DNA of 63,783 bases, the filler included, from Psammoneis japonica (lineage: Eukaryota), in assembly GCA_008632985.1 (NCBI GenBank). It is 4 parts of 4 records of this genome, joined end to end, with 100 filler letters (N's around TTAATTAATTAA, not from the genome) between each part and the next. Parts side by side here need not be neighbours in the genome. Positions count along the whole stretch, not along the records: positions 18,084 to 36,047 come from QPGO01000475.1; 3 more parts are not named here. The stretch is one strand, 5' to 3'. The position numbers and the translations under genes are program-made. Positions 13,290 to 62,132 of this stretch are shown here, piece after piece. Numbering within the stretch: position 1 is the first letter of the stretch; every line of letters begins with the position of its first letter. Under the pieces are notes generated by a model. The model saw only the letters and a program-made list of their open reading frames with translations, did no database searches and was not told where the DNA came from.

Positions 13290-13359
13290 CGATAATTCGG
13301 TAATATCGCCAAATATTGTTCTTGTTTTTAACCGTGTATGTTATTGTTTTGGCTAGTCC

Positions 13360-15168
13360 TCACTTTTCTTTTGTCCTGTTTGCTCGATTGTGCAATACTC
13401 GTAGTTTGTCGTTGCTCGACAACACTATCCATTCTTTGCCGGGGTGTACTGCAAATGCGTGAGGCGATCCATATTTGCGAGGGAGTTTGATGGTTCCTTT
13501 CGTTGCAGTGTTAGCGTCCATAAACAACAGACGAGAATTTTCTTGAGGGCAAACGACATCCACAGCTAAGGACGTGTCCAGCAACACCCGCTTATCATGA
13601 TGAGGAAGAATGCGGACGTTCGTCTGGACTTGTCGCCAACAGATGAAATCATCCACACAATCAACAGGAGTGATATCCACTGGCAAGCTGTAAACCGTTT
13701 CTTCAGTCTCTACGACCTCTCCGTCCGCCCTTTGAAGGCGAGATTTGGGAGACGTGTGGATAACTGAAACAGTTGGCAAAGCCGTGTCCATCTGCGGATC
13801 TGACAGCTTCATGGACAAGAGCCACCCACATGCAGTCACCCACGTGACAGTAGTCGCCCATATCGGTATCGACAATTTGTCAGTCGCTTTTGATATCTTT
13901 GACTGAGAAACCGCTTGCTCAACATTAAACTTTTCAATGCCCATCCACGATCGAGGAGGTAGAGAAGCCGTCGGAAGTTCCAAACAACTGTACGTTTCCC
14001 ATTTGCCAACAACGGTGGGCGTGACTGCCGTCGAAAATGCCTTTCGAGTACAACGTTTCCAATTTAGCAACTGAATGCTTCCGTTTGCCCCGCCCAGGAG
14101 CACAAAGTTTGAAGAGAGAGGGGCAATCGCCGTAACTTTTTCGTGCGAATTGAACACCCACCTTGGTTGAGAGGCTGCGTCGACTTTCCACAGAACCAGC
14201 GCTCCACCCGAGTGCGACACTAGGAGGTGATTGTCCCTCAAAAATAGATAGCTCGATACCCCATTCGAAGGTGAAATCGACGCTGGTGCCTTCAACCCTT
14301 GCCATACGGAATGTGTCACCACGGTCGTTCCTGCTTCCGCAATCTTTGCAATGTCGTAAATACGAACCTCGGACGTCGACCTGTTTTTGAAAAGAAGACG
14401 GATAGTGAGAAGAAATGGAGTCATGGTCGATAGTTCACATTCGTAAATCGTACCGAAATGCCACTGCTAATTGATCTGGATCATGTGGATTCCAACAGAG
14501 GCAAGTTGCGGAATAGGGAGTTGAGAAAGTCCAAGAGGGAAGGACGCGACGTTGAAGTTTTTCTCCGCTTGATCTTGACTGTATCCGGCGGCTTCTCATA
14601 TCCTGTGCGACTACCACATCCCAATCATAAATCAATATCGATTTTTTCGTTGTAGCAACCGCCAACAGTGCCCCAATAGAATCCCAGGCAAGCAGGAGAC
14701 ACCGCCTACTGTCCTGGGACCCAACGATACAGTTGTGGGAACGGCCCAATTGTCGTTTGGTGTCTTGATTCTCTTCTCATATCTAATGACTGACATTGAA
14801 CGACGCATCAACTGCAATGCAATGTTCTTGGAAGTGAGACATAATATGGAGCGTCTAGCCAGCTGATTTCTGGAGTTCACGCAAGATCCCCAACCTCTGA
14901 AGAGCCGGATGTAGGAGATGGCGAAATCGACCGTAAGTTGCTTTTGGATGGCTGTTCAGGGCACTCAGACTGTGGCGCTATTGTGATAGTCTCGTCATCT
15001 TGACTTATGGTAGAAGTCTCTCTTGAAGAATAATCCGCGTCGCTGGGTACCCTCGTTTGTGTCTGTTTTTCTGCGTCTCTGTTTCTTCTCGGTCCGTGCA
15101 AAAATGGAATATACTTTATCCGCATCGTGTGATGAAGAGTCTTGACTGTCCATATCCTTTCGAAGCAT
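13360..15168 (-). CDS. WD40/beta-propeller-like protein with intron 14381-14453 and several apparent frameshifts in the 5' part
   Basis: WD-like segments AWDSIGALLAVATTKKSILIYDW, LCWNPHDPDQLAVAFR/STSEVRIYD, GALVLWKV, GSIQLLNW, FAVHPGKEWIVL. The GT-AG intron is phase-consistent. The reading frame jumps near 14690 and further upstream, so the start is uncertain. Confidence 0.6.
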
Positions 15169-16485
15169 CAGAAGAAATCGAACAATGAGGACTCTCTTCC
15201 AGAACGTGCGTGCTGTTTTGTTTTTGTTTTCGATGTGTCTGGATTTGCATTGAAGAAAATCGGGGGGGGGGGCGGCACGCCAAAAAATGGCGCGGTCCAC
15301 GAGCTCAAAAATGAAGTAAACAGCCAACAGAGCTCGCAGCCAACACCATGGCATATTGCATAGGCAGGATGGAACTGGAACGCTGTCACGCAATGACGGT
15401 GATTCCTCGTCTTTGCATATGCCGTTGCCCAGCAAAGGCTGGCACATTATTTGGTGATTATGTGGTTGTCTATGTGGCTCGTTTTGTACGGCCGTCTAAC
15501 GTGCGGGTTAATTCTTTATTCGCCCGTGGTCTAATGAGTGTGCGACGATTGATCATCGATGGCGCAACAGCAATAACCAAACGCTACCGGTAGTAAATTT
15601 CGATGCGGCTAAAGGAGGCGTTTATTAACGGACTGTGTGGTTGTAAATGGTGATTGAGTTCTTCAGCAATGATATTGTATGAGGACGAGACGGATTTGCT
15701 TCGACAACATTAGCTTCCTTCGTGTTCATGAGAGTCTGCGTCTTGTCATTTTTCGAGTACTCGAGATCTACGTGACACTTCACTCGGTGTAAAAGGCGGC
15801 GAATGTACTTTATGCTGGTCCATCGAATTTACAAGTCACTTGAGAAACGTGTGATACTATGTGCACGAGACACGAGATCCAACCAAAACTACCCGAGACC
15901 CGAGACTGAGTCAGGCGCTGACGAAAGGTAGACAAATCCTTGTTTGTTGTGATTCAAACCACTAGTTTTATGCCCGGTCAGTGATATACTTTGTTCCATC
16001 CGAGGATCGAGACGCTATACCCTTCTTGACTGCATCAGGTGCTCAGGGAAGGTCGTATTATAATCTGCATAAGTTTTCACAGCTCCATGTCCGTGTTGGC
16101 GCAGATGGTTGATAGCCAAGAGCAAAGGACCATTCGAATGACAAGAAGAAGGCGTGATTTCGCCCTACTGTATGCCACATTCCCGCTTTTGGTGCCAACA
16201 ATGGAAGCGAAGCCTTTCGGCGCTCAGAAGATCCGTCGATTGATCTCATTTTCCGGGATTCAAACTGTCGCTACGTGACGACACGTAGAACAGTACTGCA
16301 AACCTCTTTTTGTCCCAGAAAGCGCGGGACGCAAACCTGGCGGTGACCATGATCCCACACACGACCACTTGCAAGCGAATCTCGTGTTACTGCATTTGCC
16401 ACTCTTCTCCGTTCGGCCGACACAATCACAACCAAAGCATCAAACACAAAAGAGACTACAAAAACAACACTCAGCCAAGATTATC

Positions 16486-17983
16486 ATGTCGATGCTTACC
16501 CTTTTCTCGGCCCTCAATGCCACTCAGCATGCTGGATTTTGCGGATTCCCTTTGGATTTTATCTCGAGTGGCAATCCGTTTGAAGAACCTCGCGAAATCT
16601 GCAACGCCGCTGCTCAGAGCGACTCTGCTTGTAAGACGTCGACTTTCTTTGGTGCTTACCGGTGCAGATGGGAAAACGGTAAATGCACGTCTGATGCCGA
16701 CGAGACCGGCGAGGATCCAACGTGTCCTTCTATTTTCATCGAGGAAGATTGCGAGGTGGAGACGTGGTTTGGTTCACGATCGTGCAAGTGGTACGAGCTT
16801 ACCGCTGCTCCAAGTCAAGCGCCTTCGATGGCTCCGTCGATCTCTCCCGAATTCTGCGGATATCCACTGGACTTCCTAGGAGAGGACGAGGATCCTTTCA
16901 TTGAGCCTCGTCAGTACTGCAACAGCCTTGCTGGCTCCGAGAGTGATTGTGGAGCTTCCTTATTCTTTGGTGAATATCAATGTCGCTGGGAAGACCGTCG
17001 TTGCACTTCTGACGCCGATCAAACGGGCGAGGACGAGACGTGTCCTTCCATCAGGAACCCTACGAAATGCCGTGCGGCGACATGGTCGGGAGCTCGCTCC
17101 TGTGTTTGGTACGCCCCACACCCTCACCGACTCAAGAGCCTTCGTCAGCTCCATCGGCATCTCCGGAGTTCTGTGGATTTCCACTGGATGTCCTTAATGA
17201 CGAGGATCCGTTTCTCGAGCCACGGGAGTACTGCAACGGTTTCGCCAAGTCGGAGAGTGACTGTGATGCAACCGAGTTCTTTGGTGAATATCAGTGCCGG
17301 TGGGAAGATCGCCGTTGCACGTCGGACGCGGATGAAACGGGCGAGGATGAGACTTGTCCTTCCATCAGGAACCCTACGAAGTGCCGCAATGCCACGTGGT
17401 CGGGAACTCGCTCCTGTGTTTGGTACTCGCCCACGCCGTCGCCTACTCAAGAGCCTTCGTCAGCTCCATCGGCCTCTCCGGAATTCTGTGGATTTCCTCT
17501 GGACATCCTCGAGGAAAACGAGGATCCGTTTCAAGAGCCACGGGAGTACTGCAACAGTTTCGCCAAGTCGGAGAGTGACTGTGACGCAACCGAATTCTTT
17601 GGCGAATATCAGTGCCGGTGGGAAGATCGTCGTTGCACATCCGACGCGGATGAAACGGGCGAAGATGAGACTTGTCCTTCTATTAGGAACCCTACGAAGT
17701 GCCGTAATGCTACGTGGTCGGGAACTCGCTCCTGTGTTTGGTACTCGCCCACGCGGTCACCAACTCAAGAGCCTTCGTCAGCTCCATCGGCGTCTCAAGA
17801 GTTCTGCGGATTTCCTCTGGACATCCTCGAGGAAGACGAGGATCCGTTCCTCGAGCCTCGGCGTTACTGTAACAGTCTTGCCATGTCAGAGAGTGACTGC
17901 GGTGCAACTGACTTCTTTGGTGAATATCAGTGTCGCTGGGAAGATCGTCGTTGCACGTCGACGCCGATCAAACTGGTGAGGAC
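16486..17983 (+). CDS. Probable extracellular/cell-wall protein with at least 5 tandem ~105-aa 8-Cys acidic domains joined by P/S/T linkers; truncated by gap, -1 frameshift at ~17114
   Basis: Repeat starts (FCG) at 16537, 16852, 17169, 17484 and 17802 (spacing 315, 317, 315, 318 nt). Unit FCGFPLD..EPREYCN..SESDC..FFGEYQCRWEDRRCTSDAD..ETCPSIRNPTKC..TWSG.RSCVWY plus PTPSPTQEPSSAPSASPE. The start codon is uncertain. Confidence 0.75.
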
Positions 17984-18083: not shown

Positions 18084-20269
18084 AAAGTCGTTGAGGACCA
18101 TGACTGGAAAATTGGAGAAAATCCCGAACTGGTCAAGTTCATTTGCTCCATCAACAATGACGAACACAAGGAAGTCCTGGCCTGCAACGACATCATGCAC
18201 CACATTGAGCAAGAAGACGAGGACACTGCCCTCTGGAAGTTCCAATGCATTGTGTCGCACAAAGGACCATTGCAACCCCATGATCCCTCTTGGAAAGGCT
18301 CAAGCCACAACGTCATGCTTGAATGGGAGAATGGGGAGATCACGTCTGAACCCCTTGCCATCATTGCCAAGGACAATCCTGTCACCTGCGCCATTCATGC
18401 ACGTGAGCATGGCCTCCTTGAAGCTGAAGGATGGAGGCATTTTTGCGAGACAGCCCTGCATCAGAAGAAGCCATTCCACATGGCCAACCAAGCCAAGTTG
18501 TGCTCCTTTCACACTGCGCCATGATGCAAGCACAGGCATGAAGTGCCACGGGACTGCAAGCATGCTTTGGCCCTCAATGAGCACAACGGCAACCGCAAGT
18601 GGGGAGATGCAACAGACCTTGAGATGACTCAGCTTGATGAGCACAAGGTCTTCCACGACTGCGGACATTGCAAAGATTCCAGCGCCCCGTTGGGACACAA
18701 GAAGATCTGGGTGCATCTTGTCTGCAATGTCAAACACTGCAAATGGCACAAAGCAAGGCTTGTTGCCGATTGACACCTCACAGACATGCCCATTGACAGT
18801 GTTTGTTCTGGAGTGGTGTCTCTTTGCGGCCTGCAAATGACGATCTTCCCAGCCAAACTCAATGAACTAGAGACTTGGGCCACCAACTTTGGGAACACCT
18901 GTCTCAAAGCTGCGACCAAGGAGAAACTGTGCATCACAGCAGGCCCCGAATTCGGCAAGCTAGAAGGACACATCCTTGTCATCCACAAGGCCTTGCACGG
19001 ACTCCGCAGCTCTGGCCTCAGATGGCATGAATGCTTTGCTGATTGCCTGCATGCCAAAGGCTTCTTCCCGTAAAAAGCTGAGCCCGACATCTGGCTGCGC
19101 AGGAATGGTGACCACTGCAAATGTGTGGCAGCACATGTGGACGACCCAGCCTTTGCCATGAAGGACCCCCAGGCTTTCACAGACACCCTCATGGAGAAAT
19201 GCAAGTTCAAGCTCAAAGGCACTGGACCATTGGAGCTCCATCTTGGTTGCAATTTCACCCGTGATCCAGATGGCACCCTGTGCCTTGCTCCCCGCAAGTG
19301 CATTGAGCACATGGTTGACAACTGCGTGTGCCTCCATGGGGAGAAGCCCTGCACTGATGTGCTTTCACCCCTTGACAAGGGAGACCACCCTGAGCTTGAC
19401 ACTTCCGAATTGCTCAAACCGGGTGGCATCCACCAACTTCAATCCTCAATTGGTTCCCTGCAATGGGCCGCACCCCTTGGTCACATTGACGTTGCTGCGG
19501 CTGTCATGTCTCTGTCTGGCTTCTGTGCAGTGCCCTGCCAGGGCCACCTGGACCGTGCCACACGTGTCTGCAGATTCCTCTCCAAGATGCGTCATGGTGC
19601 CCTCCAAGTGCACACTGAGAAGTCTGACTGTTCAGACCTTCCCAAGCCCATGCATGACTGGGCCCAGTCTGTGCATGGGGAGGCAGAAGAGCTGCTCCAC
19701 AAGATGCGCCTGAGCCACTTGGCAAGTTCGTCACCACAGCACACTGCATTGATGCAAACTTGTTTCATTGCATGCTTGCTGGATGCTCTGTCACCAGCAT
19801 CCTCCATTTCCTCAACAAGTTTCCGGCTGATTGGTTCTCTGAGAAACAAGCTGCAGTTGAGACTGCCACGTGTGGATCTGAGTTTGTCGCCACAAGGACG
19901 TGCGTTGAGCAGATTGTTGACCTGCGCATGACTTTGCGTTGCCTTGGCATCCCACTTGTGAAACATGTTGCATGTTTGGGGACAACAAGTCAGCTGTGGG
20001 CAGTGCCACCATCCGCCGCACTCCAAGTCACACAAGCAACACACCGCCCTCTTGTTCCATCGTGTGTGTGAGGCAATTGCCTCCGGTTTCCTTGAGTTTC
20101 ATTTCGTCAAAGGGTCTTGCAACCCAGCTGACATCCTCAGCAAGCATTGGGGTTGCTCCCAAGTCTGGAATCTCCTTTGTCCTCCAATGTTTTGGAACTT
20201 TGATCCCAAGGCTTTCAACCAATCTGACTTTGAATCCATTGCTGTTGACCCCTCAAGCAAACTGGGGAG
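18084..20269 (+). mobile_element. Decayed Ty1/copia (CoDi-like) pol: RT and RNase H
   Basis: WKFQCIVSHKGP...NVMLEWENGEITSEPL, KARLVAD, DSVCSGVVSL, AGPEFGKLEGHILVIHKALHGLRSSG, AAHVDD (=YVDD), SSIGSLQWA, WFSEKQAAVETATCGSEFVA, NPADILSKHWG. Stops and frameshifts are present. Confidence 0.92.
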
Positions 20270-20514
20270 TGACAGGATTTGAACAAGATTTTTGTTTGTC
20301 GCGCACAATTGTGTGTGCTCTTGGTTCCGCGCGTGTCACGCAATGTGGTTTGCTTTCAAGCCACATGGCTCACAAGAACAATGACAGCAGTGCCAAGATC
20401 ATGACACCAGTCTTTGAGCTCCTGCAACGGTCTCTGCATGGAGACTCATCTGCCATTTAGACAGCAGCAAGGAGTCATTGTTTTCTTCCACCCAGTCATC
20501 TTCAATTTCTGTCA
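20270..20514 (+). mobile_element. Putative 3' LTR (245 bp) of the copia element
   Basis: Follows a purine tract GGGGAG. Begins TGACAGGATTTGAA and ends TTCAATTTCTGTCA (TG...CA with a near-perfect 14-bp terminal inverted repeat). Confidence 0.65.
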
Positions 20515-21235
20515 CCAGGAAAACAGCCAGCTCTTTTAAGAAAAGCAACTTGTTTCAAGGAAAACAGCCAGTTCTTTCAAGGAAAACAACCAGTTGTCTT
20601 TGTTGATGTCAAGAAAGCCAGCCAGTTGCTTCAAGGAAAACAACCAGTTGTTTTTGTTGATGTCAAGGAAAACAGCCAGTTGCTTCAAGGAAAACAACAA
20701 GCTGCTTCAAGGAAAACAACTGGCTGTTTTTGTTGATGTCAAGAAAACTGACCAGTTGTTTCAAGGAAAATGACCTGCTGCACTTTGTTGATGTCAAGAA
20801 AAACAACTGGCTGTTTCAAGGAAAACAGCCAGTTCTTTCAAGAAAAACAACCAGCTCTTTCAAGGAAAACAACCAGCTGTTTTTGTTGATGTCAAGAAAT
20901 GCAGCCAGCTGTTTCAAGGAAAACAACCAGCTTCTTTTGTTGATGCCAAGGAAAACAACGAGTTGCCTTTGTTGATGTCAAGGAAAATGCACAGTTGTTT
21001 CATGGAAAACAGCAAGTTGCTTTTGTCAATGTCAAAAAAACCAGCCAGTTGTTTCAAGGAAAATGACCAGCTGATTTTGTTGATGCCAAAGAAAACAACA
21101 AGTTGCCTTTGTTGGTGTCAAGGAAAATGTGCAGTTGTTTCAAAAAAGAAAACAGCAAGTTGCTTTTGTCAATGTCAAGAAAACCAGCCAGTTGTTTCAA
21201 GGAAAACAACCAGCTGGTTTTGTTGCTGTCAAGGA
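20515..21235 (+). repeat. Degenerate minisatellite, 22-bp unit TTTCAAGGAAAACAACCAGTTG interspersed with a longer unit containing TTTGTTGATG
   Basis: Directly visible tandem units that share the TTTCAAGGAAAACA core with the 23-bp satellite. Confidence 0.85.
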
Positions 21236-21239
21236 CAGC

Positions 21240-21520
21240 TGTGGTTTTGACACTTGCACAGCATCCTCTCATGCTGATGCTCCAGAGGAGCAGGTGTCAG
21301 ATGCCTTTGCCTGGCGCCATCTCAAGAAGCCATCTGCATGGCCTGAATGGCACATGGGCAAGTTCAAGCAACTGGGCCAGTTCTGTGAATTGGACGTGTT
21401 TGCTGCCCCCATCAAGTTTCCCATGGGTGTCATTGTGCTTTGCCCACATTGGCAGCATGGCCTCAAGCATGATGGTGCAAGGCATTCCTGTCAATGTTTT
21501 TGTGGCTCCCTGTGCACAGT
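21240..21520 (+). mobile_element. Copia RT N-terminal fragment (second lineage)
   Basis: WRHLKKPSAWPEWHMGKFKQLGQF...VIVLCPHWQHGLKHDGARHSCQCFCGS resembles the copia RT start (W...E.KQL.QF...LRPHWQY..K.DG.RR.R.CCDGS). Confidence 0.6.
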
Positions 21521-23699
21521 GACCACACGATGTGGGCGCAAGCCCAGTGCTTGCTGACTGAGAACATGCACTCCAGAGAGGGGGCCAACGTCATTTGCCA
21601 TGAAAGTGATGTGTGGATGAAGAGAGGCACCCTCTGAGGCAGCCCCCAATGCTGGAAAGTGCCAAACAGCAAGCCACACTTCTGCTTGTGTGACAAATGC
21701 ATTCCAGAGAGGGGGCCAACATCAGTCACTGCAAAAGTGATGCAGACAATCAGAGGCAGCATTTGAGGCAGTTCAAGATGCTGGAAAGTGCAAACAGCAA
21801 GCATCACAGTGTGAACAAACCAAGCCAAGTTTGTTCCAGCGTCATTCTTGAATTGGTTGACGATGGACACAGACTCAAGAGGGACTCACTGCAGCACTGG
21901 AGCAACAACACTGGGCAACATTAACTTGAGCTTGGCATGAAAGTTCAAGAAGAGGGCATTTGTTGGGTGACAGACAACCCACCACTGGAGAATTCCTCCT
22001 GCATGGCTCTCAGCAACTCATCTGTCATGCTGATTGGGACGCCCTTGGAGCAACACAAATTCAACATGAGGACCATGGATGTTGTTTCGCTGTTGCAAAC
22101 TTTGGGAACCACAAGGTCCTTGTCTGCGGAGAGGTGTCCAACTTGATTGAGAACGGCAAAAGGGCCAGATTCAGCAACCGTGGTGGCAAAAACCTTGGTG
22201 TTGGAAACAAATTCTTTGTGGTCAGGAAACTGTCATTCTGAAACATCATTGGTGTGGGGAAGAACAGAGTTGTTGTGGGGACCACGCTGCTCTGGCACAG
22301 ATGAAAATGCACAATTGGATCGCAACGGCCGGGGATTGAGTCATGTGCAACCTTGTGGAGTTGGCCCGGCATTGGAGTCAGGCCCTGTGGCAAGAAATTC
22401 AATGGGAGGAGAGCCAAGGGCAGAAGAGGCAGCAACGTCCACATGTTCATCCGATTCTCCCAATTGGAGCTGTTTGCCATGAAGATGAGTTCTCAGGTGG
22501 TGTTGAAGAGACCAGTTGGGAGAAAACATTTGCCACACACAGGACAATCATTGCCAACAGCAAAGGGGAGCACCATTGTTCATGTTGCAATGCAAGCAGG
22601 ATGAAACTGAGTGGGACAAACCACGTGGTAAAAATGACATGTGGCGGGTGACAAGATTGTGTTGCACGGAATCAACTTGCGTGTGAGCGTGCGAGATTGT
22701 AGCTTGGTTTAATGCACAACGTGAGTTGTCTGCACACCGGCATGTGGTGCTTGCATCAAGCAGTTGACAATGCAAGACAAATCAGACTTTCCACAGTGAT
22801 GGAAATTTTGTCATGCTGGCGTGCATCTCAGATTGTTGCCCCACCAGACAATGAAGAAAGAGGACAGTGCAACACAGGGAAGATTGTCACCAGACTGATG
22901 CGCAGTGATTGTGAGAGCACAATGAGTGTCACATCCTTGCATCCACGATCAACTTGACTCAGTTTGCTTGGTGGGTCATTGTGGATGACTGATGGATGCT
23001 GTCGTCATGTCCCCCTTTCCAGAGAGTGGGCTCTCACAGCGCAAAAGTTGGAGGATGGGCACAGATTGTGTCCTCCCATGCTCTTGACAAGAAAAAATTT
23101 GAGGCTGTTCTGTTGCATGGTCTTCACCTCTGTCACAACCAGCAGAGCCACATCAGATGCCTCAGGGTTCCACAACACATGGAGCCTGAAACTTTGCATG
23201 TTTGAAGGGTGTCATGCTTGCTGCACCCCCACACCAGACACATCCACACTGCATTGCACAGAGTGCTGGATCCTTGTGATTGCACTCTTCTGGCCCTCCT
23301 GTGGTGACGGAATCAACCAGTGTGCAAGGGATCTAGAATTCTCCCAAGCTGACAACTCCTCAGTCACAGACTGGGCACAAAGCACCTGAGCTGACACTCA
23401 AAATGGAGTGCAAAACATCAGACTGAAAAGAAAATGAGTGCAATGCACCAAACATGTTTGCCAATCTGGCGACAAATCCGAAGCATGTCGAACATGCGAT
23501 GCGTCAAGAAGAAACTTTGGGCTTCTTGTTTGAGCCTCGTCCAATGAATGTCATCAATGTGACTTGACGCTTTGGGCCTTGAAGCCCCACACGCATCTGG
23601 CACAAGTCAAATGGTCCTGCCACAAAGTGCTCAGCCAAAGGGGAAGGAGCAGACCGCAGATGGCCAAACCAGGGTGTCATTCATTGCTGAAATTTCACC

Positions 23700-25060
23700 C
23701 ACCTTCTGAGGTCTAACTGGGAAAAGCCATGGGTCTCAACCATTGGCTCAAAGCTTGCAAACATCCAGCCAGAACCTGCCATTGACCAGGGATCTTGAGC
23801 TCCAATCTGAGTGCTGCTGTGCCCACCAATGCGCGTGATGCACACCTTGAGCAGTCGCATGACAATGGCTGGACTCCAGCCAATCCACTTGTGCCACAGA
23901 GAGCAGGAGTCACTTGAGCTTGAGGATGACAGGCAACAAAAACATCTTGGTGGTCAAGTTGGATGTGGGCTTGTGCAGCTTGGCTAAAAACTGCTTGGTG
24001 CTTGGATGAACTGCGCTGGGGACCAAAGTGGGGAGAGGCACTGCATTGGTTGCAGAGCCTTCCTCATCCAAGTCACCATCTGTGTCATCAACTGTTTCCA
24101 AATGTTTGATGTGACCTTGAGAGTCTGAATCCAAAGAATCTGTTTCAACTGGAGGTTCGCCGGACCACATGCTTTGCAATGGTTCAAACACAAAGTCCTC
24201 TCCTGCATCAGCCTTGGAGCAGCCACCTCATGGAACATTTCCAAGCCACTTTTCTAAAGGAGAACCAGCAATCTTAGAATGGAAATGAAAGAAACGAGTG
24301 CCAGTGCCATCAGCTGTCATGTGAAAAATCATTGCAGATGGCAACAGCATCATTTGCACAACATTCTCCTTGTGAAACCATCTGGGATGACCCAATCCTT
24401 GAACAAAAGGCAGCTTCTGAAGCTTGCAAGAAACAGGGAAGACCTTCTCAAGCACTCTGCATTGACCCTCAGGGCAAAAAAGCAGCTTGGCAGAGATGCC
24501 TTGTGACTTGTCTGACTTGACTTGCTTGCACACACATGCTGTGTCCCCTGAGTTAAACTCGCGGCATCCTCTGCCCCAATTTTTTAGCTCAACATGCCTG
24601 TGATGCCACTTGTCATTCAACACCACATTCAACAACTCATGCTGCTTGAATGGCAATGGAGCAGTCAACTCAAAATGCTCAAGAGCATGTTGTGGCACTG
24701 AGGCTGAGCCATGGATGGGCTGGGCTCGAATGTCCAATGGAAAAGGAAACTTGTGTCCAACAGCCACCAGTGACCTTGCAATGTCAGCAGCATCAACAGG
24801 CAACATGCTCCATGCATGTGCAGCAAAAAGAACACCAAGCTTCCAGAGTGTTGACGACTCTCTCTGTTTTGTTGAGAAACTGGTTGAAACTCTCGTTGCA
24901 AACAGTGCAATGATTGCACCATGTTCTGTTCCTCACTGCACTCCAATTCAAGCCAATCCTTTTTGGATCAGCGTGCCAGCACTTTTGCCACTGTTGCAGA
25001 TGCCGCCAAATCTCCAGCCGGATCTGAACCAAAAATGCTGCTGTTTCTGAGCAAAAAATT
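23700..25060 (-). mobile_element. Decayed Ty3/gypsy integrase and C-terminal region
   Basis: ESFNQFLNKTER, AAHAWSMLPVDAADIARSLVAVGHKFPFPLD, REFNSGD...KQVKSD...SAKLLF..EGQCRVLEK...SCKLQKLPF (GPY-type motif with Tyr->Cys). Confidence 0.65.
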
Positions 25061-28000
25061 TCCATCTTTCAAAATCAATCTTGTCTGGGGTGGCTGCTTG
25101 AGGAAGAGTGCCACATGGCAAACAATGTTCATCAAAGCAGCACCCAAGTGCAGATTCATCACTCACCCTTTCATTCCAGCCAATGCTGCATCTTGACTTT
25201 GCACCAAGATGGAAGATGGGAAATGGGGGGCATGGTGCCACAAATGAAATCAACCATGGAATTTTTTCATGCATGACAGGCTTGTGATCTGCATCTTCAA
25301 TGCCACAAAAATGCAACAAGACAGTGCACCTTGCACTCATTTTTGCCATTGCTGCACTCTTCTCCTCTCTTCTTTGCTTCTCTCTTGTTGTTGCAGCAGC
25401 AACGGGGTTGCTTTGCTCCCCCTCTCCCCCCCTCTTCTTCCGTCAGCACCCCCCCCTGTTTTCCCTGGTGGTTGAAGGGTTGACATCAGAGGCCCGCAGA
25501 AAAGGCCTTCAGTCACATGTCATTGAGCCCCACCATCTCATGGCATGCACGCACGCGCCTTGATTGGTGGGCTCCACTCCAGATTGAAATTGACGCTTGC
25601 TTTTGGAAAGACAACATTTTTGTTCATTCTCAATTTACAGATTAGAATGTCAGGCATTTGTTGTGCCACGACACATTTTATTTAATTGACATTTGTTGGC
25701 TTGTGTGCCAAAATGCCAAGTCACACGGCACTGTCATTCCCTCAACTGAGGACAATTGCACTTCGTTCCAGCTGAAAAATGTTCATTTTCATGTTGAACA
25801 AGGCACTTTTGCCAAAATTTCCGCATCTCCGTCTTCATGATGGATGTTGACAATTCTGCAAAATTTTCCACAATTTTCTGCTCTCCCCCAAAACCCCCTC
25901 CTCTCCGCCAAATCACAATCTTTCATTTGCACCGTTCCCTCGAGCGATCCTGTTTGGGGCATTTGTCCCTTCTGCTTGTGATCCACGGGTCCAATCCCCC
26001 ATGGTTTTGGTGAATCTGCGCAGAGCCGTGAAAGAAGCATGACAACAAGTCCGTGGTTTGTGCGTCCTCTGTTCATGCCGCGATGGCCCATGGCAGTGTT
26101 CCTCTCCTGCTGTTGCGACCATGGCCCATCGCAAAGTCACGCCCAAGCAAAAGCAATGTCTCTCTTCTGGCTCTGAATCATTCGGGGATGCCACCGAATG
26201 CACAACTTGCCCATCGCACCACTTTGTCATGTCTCCAGACCATGACGGCTCACTTGATGACATCATTCGACATCATCCAATGTGGAGGCAAACCTCTCTG
26301 ATGATGTCAATCTCAGCTCTGATGACTGCTCCAGTGGCAACAACTCATCTGCTCAAGGCAATGATCACGCCAGTGCACCGACTGCATCTGGAGACCTTGA
26401 CAGTTGTGCCAGTGATCTTTCTTTTCCAACGAAGACGATGTGGATGCCAATTCTTTAGACGGAAGCAATGTTTCTGTTCTTGACGACCATGCCAAAGTGT
26501 GCACAAATGATGTTGACGGCGCCTGCATGACAAAGCCCCAATTTAAAAAAATCATCGAGATGCAGCACCGCCGCCAGAAGTTCATCGAGACTCACAACTG
26601 GACACCCTCCGCTGATCTCATTGCCCTGCCCTTCATTTGTCACAACTGCCAGAATTGAGCCTCCCATTTCTTCATGGAAGTGTTGATGGTCAACAACATG
26701 GTTGCCCATTCTCTTGGCCACAAAGATGGCTTTCATTGTGTAAAAAGCCGTGGCTGGATTTGTTTTTGTCGCAAAGATGGGAGGCATGTTCTGGAGTGCC
26801 CCGCAAGCTGGCCGAAACCATTTCCAATCTTGCCCGATTTGGCAAACATCTCCGTGCAATCATTGACGATTTACACGAGATGACAGTGAGCGAACAAATT
26901 GGCAATGACCCATGCTTCCTTTGGCTCCACAGCTTCAGATCCGAGTTGGATTTTTTTGCGCAATGCCTGAGCATCGCTGCTGCCACAATGGACTGTTGCT
27001 TTCTCCCTCACGTCGATGAAGAGTTTGGCAATTTTCGATGCTGGTCGACCATCATTTTTTCCGGCTGCAAAAAAGAGGAAACAGTTCGTTCTGTTTTGCA
27101 ACAATGTTTTGACCCTGATGAGCACGGAACAGAAGTTGAAGGATGGGAAGGTTGCCAAGAAGATCCTCGCCGATCATCTGGAATGTGTCAAGGTTTGCGT
27201 CGACACTCGTGCCATGGCGAAAGGCATGGCACAAAAACACCAAGAGTTGGTTGAGCATGAGCTCCATTCCACCTTCAAGTGTTCCTGCAAGGACACGAAT
27301 CGTCTCAAGTTCCGCAACCTGGCAATTGTGCAATCATGTGTCCACGATCTCACGCATCCACACCTTTCCCGTGTGGCCAAGGCAAAGTTTGTTTCTTCCA
27401 CCAAGAGGAGGAAGAAGAGCAAGGATTCCTCCAGTGTGTCTGCTGGTTCTCTGGCACCTCTGCCCCCTTCATCCAAGAAAGAAACCAACCGGAATCCTGT
27501 TGCTCATCCAACCGGCACCATGGCCAATGCCCCACCGTCTGCCAAATGCCACATGAGTGCACTGGCCTCCCAGTTGCAACCTTCGGCTGACAACAAAGTC
27601 GAGGCGTTGTTGGATGGAGAGTCGTTGTTGTCGGGTGAATCATCAACTGAAGACCACCCCATCCAGAATGTTCCTGATGCAGGTGCTGTGGGTCCATCCA
27701 TGGGAGGAGTCACTTCTTTGGCATCTCCATCAAAGCCAAGCACATTGGCCAGCACCACAACTTCCTCGTCAATTGACGATCGGTTCCCCCGTGGTCATTG
27801 TTGCCGCTTTGCATCCCTTTCTGATGTCTCTGGGCATGCTCCTTGTGTTTGCATCATTTGTGATCTGGGTGATGATGATGATGACAACAAGCAATCTGCC
27901 AATTGTGAGTTAAACCTGCATCATTCTCCAGCTGACTGTCACTTGCTTGACGATCTACGACATCATCTCCACTCCTTTGTGACGACGCAACCACTTCCTT

Positions 28001-29076
28001 CTGCTGCAAATCATGACTGGGAGCTGGTGGTTGTCCCACCCAGAGCTCAACGTGTTCAGGATGATGCCGCCATTTTGCACTTGTCCTCCCGTCTTTGGCA
28101 GAAACACTTTGGATCTCTCCAAGTTGACGTTGGCATGATTGCCCGTTTTGTGCTTGAACATGGCCATTCCAATCCCAATCGTGATGGGAAGATCATGCGC
28201 TGCAAGAAAAACAATGTAGATCGGTCCAAGCAACCAGACAAATGGGACTGGATCGATTTTGGCTGCTGTGGTTGGTCTCACGATGTGCTCAAGAATGGCG
28301 AGAAAGTCCCATCACTGCAAGTTGGTTTTGGGATTTTTGAGAAAGAAAAAAACGTCGTCATCCGCAATCAGATCAAGTCCATGCTTGCGGATGTGCGCCA
28401 TTCCATGCAGAGGTGCTGTGGTGAGCTGGAGACAGAGCACTTTGGCAATCCTTGACCCCACAACAACACCGCAAGAACTGCAATGTGTGGGGCCACGCTT
28501 CGCACTGGGCTGGGTTGCAAAGCAGCAAGGAATGAGCTTGGCACTGTCCAAGTTAAGATCATGCCTGATGGTGTGCAGATTCATCCAGACGAGTTGGGGA
28601 ATGTCGTTTCTGTCAAGTTCCTTGCCAACAGCTGGAAACGCGCGGGCGAACATTTTGACCAGCATCTGACGTCACTGCCATTGAAGACAATGATGCTGAA
28701 GCATGTCACAGCCATAAATCGCGCATGCAAGGAGTTCTCTTTGTCGCGCAAGGGTCCTCATGGTCCACCAATGGATTTGAACCACCGCCATCCCAAGAAC
28801 ATGTTTCTTGATGATCATTGCCCACACAAGGAAAAGGCACTCGACAAGGCTGGTTTGACTGTCATGGACAGGTTGGAGTTTCCCACCTCCTGCATTCGGG
28901 ATTTGTGGTTGTCAACGGGGATCACCGTCCTGCTCCGACTCTGAGATGTGCTCGGAATCCACAAGGTTGTCAAGATGGCAATCATGGCTTCTTGTCAGAC
29001 TGGATTCCACCGGTGCTTCCACATTGGCATGGAGCACAGGGACGAGTTGACTGAACTCAGTTCCGATCCTGCACTT

Positions 29077-29460
29077 GACGCGTTCCAGCCCTAGGTGGGA
29101 CTCCGTGTGACATTGGGCCCGTAGAATTCTACGTGCGAGCTCACGAGAATTTAATCAATGGACACATTTGTCTTCAACATCAAATGAACGGCCAAGTTTG
29201 TGGCACAATTATGCTTCTTACCACTCGACGTTTTTGCAAATGCACCTGCCCTACGCGATTCTTAAGACATTGTAGAATCGCGCTGTAACAATAAATGTCA
29301 AAAGTTTTTGGACGGATCGCTCAATAAGTGTGCCGTAAAATGACACAAAATATCGAAAAAATCACGTAGAAATCTACGTGCGCGACATACGACGTGATTC
29401 AAAAAACTATCGATGTCACAGTTCAGCAGTGCGAGGTCCCACCTAGACCTGGAACACGTC
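29077..29460 (+). mobile_element. MITE / non-autonomous TIR element (384 bp), ~27-bp imperfect TIRs, 4-bp TSD ACTT
   Basis: Left end GACGCGTTCCAGCCCTAGGTGGGACTC. Right end (reverse complement) GACGTGTTCCAGGTCTAGGTGGGACCTC. ACTT at 29073-29076 and 29461-29464. Partial copies at 42560-42860, 53662-53829, 54178-54243 and 60447-60512. Confidence 0.8.
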
Positions 29461-30739
29461 ACTTGTCTGCTGTCAACTGGGCATGAAGCTGTTTGGCACT
29501 GCCACTGGAGACGCAGGAGTTGCTCCACGCCGTCTGAACCCCAGCGGCTGCAGTTTTGTTTTCTGCTTTGAAAGAACTGGAGTGGCCGGGGAAGACCTGG
29601 GTGATTTGGAAAATCAAGATGCAGCAGCAGAGGAAAACGAATGTTCTCAATCCCCAAATGATTTTGGCTCAGATGTTGACAAGTCGGTGGCACAACAAGA
29701 ATTGAGTTGTCCTGAGGACAAGAGAGGCATCCCTCCCAATGGTGCCGACAAACACTGTGACTCTGAATCACCGGACTTCGACGACATGAGGGAATCACCT
29801 CAAGAGAGCCCAGATCTCTCAGTGCAACCAAAGAAAACAAAGGTGTTGTTTTTGTGCATGACACAGACAAATGACATTGATTCTCTGTCATTCACAAATG
29901 TGCTTGACGACATCAACAACGACTTGTTCAGTGGAAATTCCAAACTGAGATCCGACGCGACAAGGATGCTTGCCTGTCGTGACACGGTGCTTGATGCAAC
30001 CAACCGCACCATTGATTGCGAATTTTGCACAGCTTCTCTGAGCAACGGTCACAACGCCCATCACCTCAACTGCAACGCATGCAGTCCTGCATTTTGCAAC
30101 GAGGTCATCACAAAGTTCGGAAGCAACTTTGAGGAAAATCAACTTGGATTGCTTTTGGCCACAAAAGGGTTGGTTGAGCGACAGATTCAACCCATGCTTC
30201 TTCTTCGGCAGGACATTGCCTGAACTGTCAAACGCAATGAAAGTTGGCTGGCGATGCCATCAGCATCCTTTTTGATGTTGAGACATTTCTTTCCCATGTC
30301 TTGCACAAGGAGTCCATTGTTGAAATGCACCACGCCCTTTTTCCGAAGGATGTGCGCGTCCTGTTGCACGAACCGCACCATTGCAGCTGTTTCGATGATG
30401 AACAGTGCAAACAAAAGCTGAGTCTAGATCATGCACACCAGGTGAACAAATGCCTGGCTGGTGTTGCAAACAGCAAAGTTGGCCAGTCGGTTCCAGAACC
30501 TTTTTGCCTTCAAGCCAAAGAGGTTTGGAAGTGGCTGAGCAACGAAAACCACCACATCAATCTTTGCAAATGGACAGCGCCACTTCAGCTGGCATTCATT
30601 GGACACAGAAATGGCACAAAACATGTTGAGATGGCAACTGCAGTGACAACCAATGAAAAGTTGGAAAGATGGTCAGACACAAAAACACATGAGGTGACGA
30701 GCCGGTTCCTCACAAAGAGCAGCTCCCCGCCAATGATTG

Positions 30740-32500
30740 AGCCACATTGATGCATGTCGAGTCAAACGATCGTCCCATTGACATGCCTCATCAAGTCGTG
30801 GTCGCAGCTTTTTGCAGGTGGAGAACAGACGTGTTGCGGGGCATGCAAATGCACACCTGTGTTGTCAAAGGCTGCCAATGAGACAGATGGAAGACGAGGC
30901 AGGAGATCATGCCTTCGTCCATCCAGAGTCAAATCCAAATTTATGTTGAAGTCGTGCAACCAAAACTCCATTGCGCAATGATCATTTCAACACTCCTCAG
31001 GGTGCATCGTGTGCAGATGCAAGAGAAGAGCCTCTGCGAGCTTCTGTTGCCACTTGAGGCAGCCATCCAATGGACTGTCCTTGCTGAGTGCTGCTGCAGC
31101 AGAGCCGGTCCATCCAAGTGCTGGCTTGTTGAGACAGGAAACAATCTCCACATTGATTGGAGAACAAGAAAGACCAAGCTGATTGGTTTGGCAGGATGTG
31201 TTTGCAACATTGTTGGCAGAACACATGCAGAAGCGATGCACTCAACCGGCGCCACCACCATTGGATGATTTCCGTCCACAGACAAAGTCTTGTGACTTCT
31301 GGTCACCAAACATTGGCCCTTGCACAAGTCGGACATGCATGCACCGGCGAACACCACCCAAGTTTGCCATCATGAGGGGAGGCTCTGCCTGCAATGCCTT
31401 CAAATCTTCCAAGAGAAAAGACAACATGTCATGGTGAGCCTGCATGTTTGATGAACACGGGGGCTTGCCCGATTGCATGTCTTTGTTCACATTCCCGTTC
31501 TCATCGAGTGCAGCAACCGCACCATCCTTGTCTGTGCTGGGCATGAACCCCAGGTGATGCCAGGCGCAATCATGCTCACGCACATGCCTCTTGGCAAGAA
31601 GAGTGCAGAACAACCAGGTTTCGAGGGGACACCTTTGACAGGCATCAGTCCCTGTCTGATCAGCGCATGAGGCGATTGGCAACAGCAAGTCCTTCTTGCA
31701 GTCAAAGTCACTGGGGAGGGCATTGCATGTGTCAGAGCACCATTTGTTGGACATGATCTCACCAAGATCACAATCGTTGATGGGAACGCACTTGTGGAAA
31801 CGTTCCTGCAGGGACTTGTTCGCGTTGAGATTGTGCTCGTTGTCAAACATCGAGTGGGCGAGCAAATCTCTCAACATGTCCAGCATGCGGAAGCGAGTGA
31901 CTTCCTGCCCACCAATGAGGCGAGTGTCAGGCTGGGGCAGAGAAACCTTCTCGTGGAGTTTCTTTGCCAACAAGTCACGCCCAAGACACTGGGAACAATC
32001 GAATTTCCGCTTCTTGCTGAACCGGCGCAACAGGGTGAGCAGCTGTCCATAGAATTTGTGAGTGGCGCCGGAATTGTCACACAGTGCAATCAGCTCCAAC
32101 AAGGCCTCCTCTGACAGTGCAAAGGTTGGCAGATCAGGTGCATCCCCGTGCAAGGCATCGGAGTTGGCATTGCTGGTGGTGGGGAGGACGCCAGGGGGTG
32201 GATCCTGGAGCAAAATGGATTCTTCACATGCATCCACCGGGGAAGAATGCAAAGAACCGGCAGGAGGAGTGCCAGGGAACATTTTGTAAAGAGAGGAATC
32301 GTCATCGTCACCCACGTTGTCATCACAATCCTCTTCCTCCTCCTCCTCCTCCTCCTTGGATTCTTCATTGGGGGGGGGCGTGGGCTGCAGATCGTTCGCG
32401 GGTGGGAAACTGTGTGAGTCATCATCTCCGTCAAGGCCCGTGCTGGGATTTGGTGCTTTGTCATTCTCAGGTGCAGAAACGGATGACTGACAAGCAATTT
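30740..32500 (-). mobile_element. Decayed Plavaka-like transposase
   Basis: LLELIALCDNSGA, MLRDLLAH, GEIMSNKWCSDTC (W-Y..T-Y), LLLPIASCADQTGTDACQRCPLE (Y.D.TG.D..QRYPLE), AWHHLGFMP, FGDQKSQDFVCGR, VHRFCMC. Confidence 0.7.
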
Positions 32501-33449
32501 GCTGCTTTCGGAACACAAGAACGGCGGCTTGCGACATCTGGCACAATCGAGTTGTGGCAGATGCACTGGGGTGGGCTGCATTGTGCAAGCGGTGGTTGCG
32601 ACGGTGGGAAACAGGCATGCCAAGCTAAGAGGGCCATTGGAAATGAGAAATGCAAAGATGCAGGACAAAACAATTGGGTGCTTGTTCACAACCATTTGTT
32701 GGCGTGCGTGTGTTGGATTGTTTTTTGAATCAAATTGTTGAGTGTGCACCCTGCTGACTTTTGAATGGGAGACACTTGGTGTGGTGGCAATGGCCGTTGG
32801 AGAGTTGGCCACAGGGAGGCAATTGGACATGAGGGCATGCACACATTCGGAAATTAAAGACGGCATTTTTTGAATTGGAGAGAGGATCTGTTTAAATTTC
32901 AATGCAAATGTCCAGCCAAACAAAGAAACATTGGTGAAAGACACTGTTCAGGTGAGCAGAAATTTGTGCTTGGAAATGGAGAAGGATTGCCGTCACCCAC
33001 ACATGGTCCACAAGACTGGCCACATCCATCAACGTGCTTGCAGCACGTGCACATGAGCACACACCAGAAATGAAAACACAGAGCAGCAGCAAGGACAATG
33101 GTGCATGTGGAGCAGGAGCTGAGCTCAACCGAGTGGATGGCGGATGAGGCAAAGGTGATGGAAGACACAGCGAAGGTGAGAGATCATGCAAAGGAAACAT
33201 TGTTCCTCAGTGTGACACTCACATTTGATGAAAAGGAAATGGAGGAAACGGGCATGCTCTGCTGAGATTATGAACAGAACTGCGGCCCCAAGATGATGCA
33301 TGGCCTGCTGAACAAATTGCCTGAGGCAGAGCAAAAAACATGCCTGCGCCACCTGTGGCTTGCGATGAAACAAAAAAAGATGCATCAGGAGTGGCCAGCA
33401 ATTGAGAGGTTGAATGCATGCCAGGCGCAGCAGGACAAGTTCCACGGTG

Positions 33450-39540: not shown

Positions 39541-39544
39541 TTCA

Positions 39545-50306: not shown

Positions 50307-50309
50307 CCA

Positions 50310-52770: not shown

Positions 52771-52827
52771 GAGTTGAGTGCCAGAGCGGGACTTGGGCCT
52801 GTCTGCAGAGAAGACTTCAATGTCAAG

Positions 52828-62130: not shown

Positions 62131-62132
62131 AA

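What the first reader, a model, noticed from the sequence alone, without database searches (positions are those of the whole stretch)
18860..26900. Surviving TpA sites are mostly YTAR, suggesting a TAY target preference
Seen by eye: the rare survivors are mostly CTAG, TTAG, TTAA or CTAA (e.g. ACTAGA ~18868, CTAGAA ~18961 and ~23334, TTTAGA ~20458, TTTAAG ~20536, TCTAAC ~23714, CTAAAG ~24254, TTAGAA ~24275, GTTAAA ~24554), with some GTAR. RTAY (GTAC, ATAT, GTAT, ATAC) is essentially absent. YTAR reads TAR on both strands. Inference: T-A-Y is the preferred substrate. Established: the natural TadA target is U-A-C-G in tRNA, and TadA-derived DNA editors favour a 5' T, which would fit a deaminase-type mechanism.
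Basis: partly seen in the sequence, partly recalled or inferred. Interest (0 to 1): 0.7.

Follow-up and report, generated by a model that had tools for sequence, protein, structure and literature searches.

The report
Flanking-base rule of TpA-erasing hypermutation
In the repeat DNA of this diatom-like alga, where almost every TA step has been rewritten to TG or CA, the few TA steps left sit almost only where a purine follows the A on both strands, which suggests the unknown mutator works about three times faster on T-A-pyrimidine.

Summary
In 18860-26900 there are 24 TpA: 17 YTAR, 7 mixed (RTAR or YTAY) and 0 RTAY.

I removed six TTAA that belong to artificial scaffold linkers and one unmutated 390-bp MITE. 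The window's hypermutated DNA then holds 97 TpA in 45,986 nt: 57 YTAR, 40 mixed, 0 RTAY. The gene island holds 88, 280 and 171 (p = 4e-20).

Three checks that do not use the survivors point the same way.
- **Products:** YTGY exceeds RTGR.
- **Tyrosine codons:** conserved Tyr codons preceded by a pyrimidine became Cys 16 times and His 6 times. Those preceded by a purine became Cys 13 and His 16.
- **MITE copies:** 8 of 10 hits fell on the TAY strand.

A model in which each strand's half-site adds its own rate, with TAY about 3-fold faster than TAR, fits both the survivors and the strand choice.

The link to TadA's UACG target is not supported beyond T-A-C. The enzyme is unknown.

This scan noted the TpA erasure on other DNA of this genome, and one 2026 preprint reports it in Bigelowiella.

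The parts
18860..26900 (.). The finding's region: hypermutated repeat DNA with 24 surviving TpA (17 YTAR, 7 mixed, 0 RTAY)
1..3500 (.). Hypermutated tract (TA o/e 0.0-0.15). There is a sharp edge: TpA at 3393, none up to 3827, then normal density including RTAY
4001..17980 (.). Gene island used as the unmutated baseline (TA o/e 0.60; 539 TpA: YTAR 88, mixed 280, RTAY 171)
18084..62212 (.). Hypermutated repeat DNA (TA o/e about 0.03, CG o/e about 0.5, TG/CA o/e 1.6-1.7), interrupted by linkers, N runs and one unmutated MITE
18084..20204 (+). Ty1/copia-type pol fragment. At 28 codons where 47 full-length homologues mostly have Tyr, none is still Tyr: 13 are Cys (TGY), 10 are His (CAY) and 5 are other residues
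26419..27819 (+). Mobile-element ORF with one homologue (P0121). Its Tyr positions read Cys 5, His 7, Phe 1
30999..32237 (-). Plavaka-like transposase relic (a weak Pfam hit below the curated cut-off; 3 homologues). Seven positions where homologues have Tyr now read Cys 3, His 1, Tyr 1, Phe 1, Met 1
29075..29460 (+). Unmutated MITE of about 390 bp with 20 TpA in all context classes, including both RTAY of the repeat DNA. It serves as the 'before' state
42559..42852 (-). Partly mutated MITE copy: both RTAY converted, 5 of 10 asymmetric sites converted, TTAA kept, CTAG converted
53662..53829 (-). More strongly mutated partial MITE copy
54173..54243 (+). MITE-end relic (CTAG to CTGG, CTAC to CTGC, GTAG kept)
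60445..60512 (+). MITE-end relic (GTAG to GCAG, CTAC to CTGC)
60487..62010 (+). Retroelement polyprotein relic (531 homologues). Six conserved Tyr positions read Cys 4, His 2
62130..62212 (+). Degenerate telomere units next to the telomere, hand-counted from the printed sequence: TTGGGG 6, TCAGGG 4, CCAGGG 2, TTAGGG 1. TTAG, a YTAR site, is erased here too, on either strand
62774..63783 (+). Intact TTAGGG telomere repeats, not mutated
36048..36147 (.). Artificial 100-bp scaffold linker (N44, TTAATTAATTAA, N44). The same linker is at 17984-18083 and 53830-53929. Its TTAA sites must be left out of counts

Best explanation
The repeat DNA of this window has been hit by a mutator that turns TpA into TpG or CpA. 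This is the process already noted elsewhere in this genome and reported once in Bigelowiella natans. TpA is its own reverse complement, so every site offers two targets, one A on each strand. The mutator reads at least one further base: an A followed by a pyrimidine (5'-T-A-Y-3', equal to 5'-R-T-A-3' on the other strand) is converted about three times faster than an A followed by a purine. The lifetime of a site depends on the sum of its two half-site rates. RTAY has two fast half-sites and is extinct. YTAY/RTAR has one and is rare. YTAR has none and supplies most of what remains. Shown here: the survivor bias, the direction of the conversions, and the strand choice at asymmetric sites. Inferred: that one enzyme reads a T-A-Y trinucleotide on a single strand. 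My best guess for the chemistry is DNA adenine deamination (A to inosine, read as G), but this is not shown.
For: Survivors. Of 97 TpA, 57 are YTAR, 40 mixed and 0 RTAY, against 88 / 280 / 171 in genes. The bias holds outside satellites and MITE relics (42 / 27 / 0 of 69).

Products. Both-strand 4-mer counts give YTGY 2856 against RTGR 1870 (ratio 1.53) in repeat DNA, and 560 against 480 (1.17) in genes. Both product classes come from the same ancestral site class. The ratio is 1.28-1.90 in 9 of 10 sub-regions and does not track CpG loss. The block-bootstrap excess is 11.2 per kb (CI 3.7-20.0; Mann-Whitney p = 0.008). CpG decay seen in two post-mutation duplicates runs the other way (YTGY 9, RTGR 19).

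Clean ancestral TA sites. At codons where homologues mostly have Tyr, those preceded by Y read Cys 16 and His 6, and those preceded by R read Cys 13 and His 16.

MITE before and after. 8 of 10 events at asymmetric sites fell on the TAY strand. Both RTAY sites were converted in both copies that cover them.

Quantitative fit. A Poisson half-site model gives Y/R exposure of 3.25 (likelihood ratio against a context-blind model 2dLL = 119, p = 1e-27). This predicts 76% strand choice; 24 of 32 (75%) was observed.

Ongoing action. After two large duplications, only 1 of 19 non-CpG transitions sits at a TA/CA/TG step, although 45% of non-CpG G/C sites are in TG or CA. Four TG-versus-CA double differences exist. 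This fits newly made TA being erased again.
Against: The Tyr test alone is not significant (Fisher p = 0.086; 16 of 22 against 0.5, p = 0.052).

One of ten sub-regions (26000-29050) shows no product asymmetry (ratio 0.98). One of four asymmetric 4-mer pairs (ATAG/CTAT) shows none.

The ancestral baseline is the gene island, not the elements' own unmutated sequence.

The finer ranking from survivors (exposure T 3.25 > C 2.20 > G 1.47 > A 0.30) is not borne out by strand choice. Tyr codons preceded by C (other strand TAG) gave Cys 9 and His 3. Those preceded by T (other strand TAA) gave Cys 7 and His 3. These two splits are my hand tally of the codon lists printed. Telomere-adjacent TTAG units split 6: 6.

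CTAG was converted in all 4 MITE copies that cover it.

The half-site model predicts about 5 surviving RTAY where none is seen, so the model is approximate.

Some 'survivors' in satellites may be newly made (TTTCAAGG units beside TTTTAAGG).

Nothing here identifies the enzyme or the base it attacks.
Confidence: 0.7

Rival explanations
1. The same flanking rule holds, but the enzyme acts on the thymine. A TET/JBP-type hydroxylase or other T-modifying activity marks T in 5'-R-T-A-3' of repeats, and the modified base is later read or repaired as C. The pattern on DNA would be identical.
For: T-A-Y on one strand is R-T-A on the other, so none of my tests separates the two readings. In dinoflagellates 5-hydroxymethyluracil preferentially replaces T in TA and TC dinucleotides and is enriched at repeat elements (passages of PMC11572971).
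Against: I saw no evidence that 5hmU causes T-to-C transitions at this scale. No such enzyme or modified base is known to me in diatoms (recalled, not searched). The only published account of TpA hypermutation favours an ADAT2-like deaminase, and that too is a proposal.
Confidence: 0.2
2. The mutator is blind to flanking bases. The TpA seen today are mostly newly created by ordinary C-to-T or G-to-A changes at CA/TG, and their context reflects where such changes happen, for example TCA to TTA in A/T-rich satellites.
For: Several TTAA sites lie in satellite units whose consensus has TCAAGG. 74 of 93 distinct survivors contain TTA or TAA.
Against: The source 4-mers for RTAY (RTGY, 2469) are as common as those for YTAR (YTGR, 2254), yet RTAY is 0 and YTAR is 57. 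The bias persists outside satellites. This rival does not explain the product asymmetry, the Cys-over-His excess, or the MITE strand choice. TA-creating differences are rare after duplication.
Confidence: 0.07
3. The ancestral repeats simply had few RTAY sites, so nothing needs explaining.
For: The true ancestral composition of most repeats in the window is unknown.
Against: Twenty-nine Tyr positions preceded by a purine (RTAY by definition) existed, and all 29 are converted. The unmutated MITE carries ATAT and ATAC, both converted in both copies. RTAY is the commonest class in the genes (171 of 539).
Confidence: 0.02
4. ADAR-like editing of double-stranded transposon RNA, fixed in the genome by reverse transcription.
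For: ADARs favour a 5' U (review table, PMC10661471; Mettrop et al. discussion).
Against: The ADAR hot spot is UAG. Here TAG half-sites survive better than TAY (42 against 29 + 11 of 186 half-sites at the 93 distinct survivors; in genes 230 against 301 + 321). A MITE, satellites and telomere-adjacent TTAGGG units, none of which needs an RNA copy, are mutated on both strands.
Confidence: 0.01

Closest known systems
TpA-restricted hypermutation of integrated giant-virus and virophage DNA in Bigelowiella natans (Mettrop et al., bioRxiv 10.64898/2026.01.13.699255; I read the abstract, outline, section 7 and found passages)
   Same: Only A-to-G and T-to-C changes, only at TpA, giving TpG and CpA. 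Confined to foreign or repeat DNA. TpA-poor, TpG/CpA-rich reverse transcriptase and transposase genes.
   Different: A different lineage: diatom-like here, judged from earlier scan notes and one named homologue from Cylindrotheca. Here the evidence is the end state in transposons, satellites and subtelomere, not live mutations. The main text of the preprint has no occurrence of 'context', 'flanking', 'trinucleotide' or 'tetranucleotide', so the T-A-Y rule is not described there. Its supplementary Table S2, which lists the mutations, could not be opened.
TadA / ADAT2-ADAT3 tRNA adenosine deaminases and TadA-derived DNA adenine base editors
   Same: The target A (position 34) is deaminated to inosine. 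The review table gives 5'ACG as the motif (PMC10661471). A TadA-8e A48E editor prefers a 'YAC' context (PMC13109818). That the base before A34 is U33 is my recollection. T-A-C fits this.
   Different: Here TAT is erased at least as well as TAC. TACG is not favoured among erased sites as far as the survivors show. No deaminase gene could be examined. The natural enzymes act on tRNA, not chromosomal DNA.
Repeat-induced point mutation (RIP) of Neurospora and other fungi
   Same: A repeat-directed, dinucleotide-specific transition mutator with a flanking preference, which leaves a skewed dinucleotide signature and ruins transposon genes.
   Different: RIP turns CpA into TpA (C to T) and so creates TpA. 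Here TpA is destroyed (A:T to G:C). Whether duplication is the trigger here is unknown.
5-hydroxymethyluracil placed by TET/JBP enzymes at repeats in dinoflagellates (PMC11572971, passages)
   Same: A modification aimed at T in TA (and TC) dinucleotides and enriched at repeat elements.
   Different: It is an epigenetic mark, not a reported source of T-to-C mutation. It is not known in diatoms to my knowledge.

Membership tests
TpA-restricted A:T-to-G:C hypermutation (as in Bigelowiella natans) | Changes fall on TpA and give TpG or CpA | tested here: met
   TA o/e is 0.03 with TG/CA o/e 1.6-1.7 in repeat DNA. At positions where homologues have Tyr, 29 read Cys (TGY) and 22 read His (CAY), 51 in all; 1 is still Tyr. 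In MITE copies, every TpA of the unmutated reference that changed became TG or CA, except one T-to-A.
TpA-restricted A:T-to-G:C hypermutation (as in Bigelowiella natans) | Confined to foreign or repeat DNA, with host genes spared | tested here: met
   Gene island TA o/e is 0.60 against 0.03 in repeats. The edge near 3400-3827 is sharp. The other edge at 18 kb lies on an artificial scaffold join.
TpA-restricted A:T-to-G:C hypermutation (as in Bigelowiella natans) | Mutations arise de novo at a very high rate in living lines | not testable with these tools
   This needs mutation-accumulation or resequencing data. There is only an indirect hint of continuing action.
TadA/ADAT2-type adenine deaminase signature | Pyrimidine (U/T) 5' of the target A | tested here: met
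   The target is TpA by definition of the signature.
TadA/ADAT2-type adenine deaminase signature | C at +1 (A-C-G of tRNA-Arg; 'YAC' of TadA-8e A48E) | tested here: inconclusive
   A pyrimidine at +1 is favoured about 3-fold. But by survivors T is at least as good as C: at the 93 distinct survivors, half-sites are C 29 and T 11, against genic 301 and 321.
TadA/ADAT2-type adenine deaminase signature | G at +2 (U-A-C-G) | tested here: not met
   Among 29 surviving TAC half-sites, 13 are TACG against 3.6 expected. So TACG is not preferentially erased. The caveat is that many of these lie in young, CpG-retaining MITE relics.
TadA/ADAT2-type adenine deaminase signature | A deaminase gene of this family with DNA activity in the genome | not testable with these tools
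   No whole genome is held for this window.
ADAR-type editing | 3' G preferred (UAG hot spot) and double-stranded RNA as substrate | tested here: not met
   TAG survives better than TAY. A DNA transposon relic, satellites and telomere-adjacent repeats are mutated. The hot-spot motif comes from PMC10661471.
Fungal RIP | C-to-T at CpA, which enriches TpA | tested here: not met
   TpA is depleted about 30-fold and CpA/TpG are enriched, which is the opposite direction.

The most novel reading that the evidence does not exclude
The T-A-Y half-site rule, with additive action on the two strands, is the footprint of an enzyme that reads single-stranded DNA and descends from the tRNA wobble-adenosine deaminases (U33-A34-N35). 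It would have been recruited in diatoms, and perhaps more widely in the SAR lineages, as a heritable genome defence that still patrols repeat DNA and re-erases any new TpA. It would be a natural DNA adenine editor.
Probability: 0.3. Interest if true: 0.85.

Novelty: new variant of a known kind. Interest (0 to 1): 0.6.

Why it matters
A flanking-base rule is the first handle on the enzyme behind TpA erasure.

- It gives a testable substrate motif (TAT/TAC against TAA/TAG) for any candidate deaminase or thymine-modifying enzyme.
- It lets the de novo mutations of the Bigelowiella experiment be compared with the diatom end state, to ask whether the same system is at work.
- It explains why the residue of TpA in such genomes is TTAA/CTAG-like.
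- It predicts which codons are lost first and how: Tyr goes to Cys more often than to His after a pyrimidine.
- If the enzyme is an adenine deaminase acting on chromosomal DNA, it would be a natural counterpart of laboratory adenine base editors.

Tried and rejected
- **Whole genome:** none is held, so I could not make genome-wide element alignments or search for a deaminase.
- **Laying public contigs on 21300-36040 at 80% likeness:** 6,776 contigs of run X1 were laid, but the listing shows only 40 of 3,226 variant places. I could not extract context-resolved counts from it.
- **Metagenome scan with a 20-base MITE word free of TA and CG:** it gave 5 loci, and all were unrelated chance matches on alignment.
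- **Pfam scan of 49 long ORFs of the repeat DNA:** it gave one weak hit, Plavaka, below the curated cut-off.
- **Two large duplicates (39535-41245 / 50325-51994 and 36267-37947 / 44731-46406):** they differ mostly at CpG (64 of 100 differences) and at only 1 TA-type site. They were copied after the erasure and say nothing about TA context.
- **Self-BLAST:** it found 0 matches between the gene island and the repeat DNA, so there is no gene/pseudocopy pair here.
- **ORF 26971-28452:** only one homologue was found, so its Tyr positions rest on a single sequence.
- **Literature searches for earlier descriptions:** they found only the Bigelowiella preprint.
- **Earlier notes of this scan:** none mention flanking context.


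Full report
**What the window is.** The window is eukaryotic and ends in a TTAGGG telomere (62774-63783). A gene island at 4001-17980 has ordinary dinucleotide content (TA o/e 0.60, CG 1.03). Nearly everything else (1-3500 and 18084-62212) has TA o/e of about 0.03, CG of about 0.5 and TG/CA of 1.6-1.7. The repeat DNA holds several mobile-element relics:
- a Ty1/copia pol fragment (18084-20204) that matches 47 full-length polyproteins, one of them named from the diatom Cylindrotheca;
- a Plavaka-like transposase relic;
- another retroelement relic;
- satellites;
- a MITE family.

Earlier notes of this scan describe the same TpA-to-TpG/CpA erasure on other pieces of this genome and call the organism a diatom. 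They led me to the one paper on such a process, Mettrop et al. 2026 on Bigelowiella natans. None of those notes deals with the bases flanking TpA. The preprint's main text does not contain the words context, flanking, trinucleotide or tetranucleotide.

**The observation.** The region 18860-26900 has 24 TpA: 17 YTAR, 4 RTAR, 3 YTAY and 0 RTAY. This is far from a first-order Markov expectation of 7.6 / 5.9 / 5.9 / 4.6, with P = 9e-5 for the YTAR excess and 0.006 for no RTAY. It is further still from the gene island's proportions (4e-9 and 1e-4).

Two artefacts had to be removed before widening the count.
- Three exact 100-bp blocks of 44 N, TTAATTAATTAA and 44 N (17984-18083, 36048-36147, 53830-53929) are scaffold linkers. 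From memory, this twelve-base word is the usual six-frame stop spacer. They contribute six false TTAA.
- The stretch 29075-29460 is an unmutated MITE with 20 TpA, including the only two RTAY of the repeat DNA.

What remains is 97 TpA in 45,986 nt: 57 YTAR, 40 mixed, 0 RTAY. The genes have 88 / 280 / 171 (p = 3.6e-20). Outside satellites and MITE relics the counts are 42 / 27 / 0. Scaled to genic density, YTAR is down about 5-fold, mixed sites about 23-fold and RTAY more than 190-fold.

**Is it a target preference?** Survivors alone cannot separate slow destruction from biased re-creation or a skewed starting composition. I used three lines of evidence that do not rest on the survivors.

*Line 1: products.* An asymmetric site YTAY (RTAR on the other strand) becomes YTGY if the A of the TAY strand is hit, and YCAY (RTGR on the other strand) if the A of the TAR strand is hit. 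Both products have the same purine/pyrimidine pattern, so tract composition cannot bias the comparison.
- Repeat DNA has YTGY 2856 against RTGR 1870 (ratio 1.53). Genes have 560 against 480 (ratio 1.17).
- The ratio is 1.28-1.90 in 9 of 10 sub-regions and 0.98 in 26000-29050. It is no larger where CpG loss is heavier.
- Excluding satellites, YTGY exceeds RTGR in 34 of 35 1-kb blocks (11 of 13 genic blocks). The excess over genes is 11.2 per kb (bootstrap 95% CI 3.7-20.0; Mann-Whitney p = 0.008).
- CpG decay also makes TG and CA, but it is not the cause. In two duplicates that diverged after the erasure, CpG-decay products were RTGR 19 against YTGY 9.

*Line 2: tyrosine codons.* TAY codons at positions where homologues have Tyr are certain ancestral TpA sites whose top strand is T-A-Y.
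- Pooling the copia fragment, its RNase H relic (counted once for two later duplicates), the P0121-like ORF, the transposase relic and the second retroelement, codons preceded by a pyrimidine became Cys (TGY) 16 times and His (CAY) 6 times.
- Codons preceded by a purine, where both strands read TAY, became Cys 13 times and His 16 times.
- The direction is as predicted, but the test alone is weak (Fisher p = 0.086; 16 of 22 against one half, p = 0.052).

*Line 3: the MITE.* I compared the unmutated copy with four partial mutated copies, counting changes shared by two copies once.
- Eight events at asymmetric sites fell on the TAY strand and two on the TAR strand (TTAT to TCAT in the 42-kb copy, ATAA to ATGA in the 53-kb copy).
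- Both RTAY sites were converted in both copies that cover them.
- TTAA was kept in the one copy that covers it.
- CTAG was converted in all four copies that cover it.

Tyr and MITE together give 24 of 32 hits on the TAY strand (75%, CI 57-89%, p = 0.007).

**A quantitative picture.** I fitted a Poisson model in which each site's loss is the sum of two half-site exposures, with gene-island counts as the ancestral estimate. It gives an R exposure of 0.78 and a Y exposure of 2.54, a ratio of 3.25. The likelihood ratio against a context-blind model is 2dLL = 119. A ratio of about 3 predicts about 76% strand choice, which matches the independent 75%.

The model is approximate. It predicts about five surviving RTAY where none is seen.

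A four-letter version fits the survivors better still (exposure T 3.25, C 2.20, G 1.47, A 0.30; 2dLL = 56). That finer ranking rests on survivors and on a doubtful baseline, since TTAA is rare in genes. Strand choice does not bear it out:
- Tyr codons preceded by C (other strand TAG) gave Cys 9 and His 3, and those preceded by T (other strand TAA) gave Cys 7 and His 3. This split is my hand tally of the codon lists printed.
- Telomere-adjacent TTAGGG relics, hand-counted from the sequence printed, split 6 TTGGGG against 6 TCAGGG or CCAGGG.

Survivors also show an A two bases after the target A far more often than expected: TAAA 75 against 43, and TAGA 28 against 12. I record this but could not test it independently.

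**Is the process still running?** Two large duplicates differ at 64 CpG-type sites out of 100 differences, but at only one TA-type site. So the erasure preceded the duplication and CpG decay has continued. Among 19 later non-CpG transitions, only one sits at a TA/CA/TG step, although 45% of non-CpG G/C positions lie in TG or CA. There are also four TG-versus-CA double differences. This is what one expects if newly made TpA are erased again. The standing TpA would then be a balance of creation and context-dependent destruction. That strengthens reading the YTAR bias as slow destruction, but the numbers are small.

**Mechanism.** Shown:
- the direction of change (TA to TG or CA);
- the restriction to non-genic DNA, with a sharp edge at about 3400-3827;
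- action on retroelements, a DNA-transposon relic, satellites and subtelomeric telomere units alike;
- a roughly 3-fold preference for the half-site T-A-Y.

Inferred: one enzyme reads three (perhaps four) consecutive bases on one strand, each strand being attacked independently. This is the manner of single-strand nucleic-acid deaminases.

The review table lists 5'ACG for TadA/ADAT2 at anticodon position 34 (PMC10661471), and a TadA-8e A48E editor prefers YAC (PMC13109818). But here TAT is erased at least as well as TAC. TACG is, if anything, enriched among survivors (13 of 29 against 3.6 expected), though this is confounded by young MITE relics that also keep their CpG.

ADAR-type editing is contradicted. 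Its hot spot is UAG, yet TAG survives better than TAY, and elements that need no RNA copy are mutated.

A thymine-directed route cannot be excluded, because T-A-Y is R-T-A on the other strand. In dinoflagellates 5-hydroxymethyluracil prefers TA and TC and is enriched at repeats (PMC11572971). No genome is held, so no candidate gene could be examined.

**Verdict.** The inference of a T-A-Y preference is supported at moderate strength by independent evidence within one 64-kb window. The link to a TadA-like deaminase remains a hypothesis. The underlying hypermutation has been seen before, by this scan on other DNA of this genome and in one preprint on another alga. The flanking-base rule and the half-site additivity appear to be new: the searches found nothing, and the preprint's supplements could not be read.

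Noticed in passing
window 17984-18083, 36048-36147, 53830-53929: Three identical 100-bp blocks (44 N, TTAATTAATTAA, 44 N) look like artificial scaffold linkers. The window is therefore four joined contigs, and the gene-to-repeat switch at 18 kb sits on a join, not on a natural boundary.
   Followed up: partly
window 29075-29460: An unmutated MITE of about 390 bp (20 TpA, CpG kept) sits inside fully hypermutated DNA. Summed contig depth in its bins is about 50-100 times that of neighbouring bins, and up to 74 contigs cover one place. This suggests, but does not measure, a very high copy number. It would be the best family for genome-wide before/after analysis.
   Followed up: partly
window 62130-62212: Telomere-adjacent units are TTGGGG, TCAGGG and CCAGGG with one TTAGGG left. 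The TpA mutator has rewritten internal telomere repeats, while the terminal array (62774-63783) is intact.
   Followed up: partly
window 39535-41245 vs 50325-51994, and 36267-37947 vs 44731-46406 (reverse): Large duplicates (89-91% alike) differ mainly at CpG (64 of 100 differences) and almost never at TpA. TpA erasure was complete before they were copied, and CpG decay is the slower, continuing process.
   Followed up: yes
window 3393-3827: A sharp natural edge of the hypermutated tract: one TpA at 3393, none for 430 bases, then normal density with all context classes from 3827 onward.
   Followed up: partly
all surviving TpA of the repeat DNA: The base two positions after the A is A far more often than expected (TAAA 75 against 43.2 expected; TAGA 28 against 12.4). 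Most surviving TAC are TACG (13 of 29 against 3.6). The resistant site looks like T-Y-T-A-R-A.
   Followed up: partly
window 19074-19928 (+): Pfam's RVT_2 model finds nothing in this hypermutated copia ORF at E <= 0.001, although phmmer matches it at 50-60% identity to proteins that carry PF07727. The erasure of Tyr and other TA-bearing codons can hide such relics from profile scans.
   Followed up: no
window 20517-21235, 38600-39530, 46915-48185, 49428-50320, 54375-55400: There are related satellite arrays with a 22-bp basic unit (larger 54- to 153-bp periods in the one array scanned, 20517-21235), rich in TCAAGGAAAAC. Units vary at CAGCTG/CAGTTG, a C/T change outside CpG and TpA.
   Followed up: no
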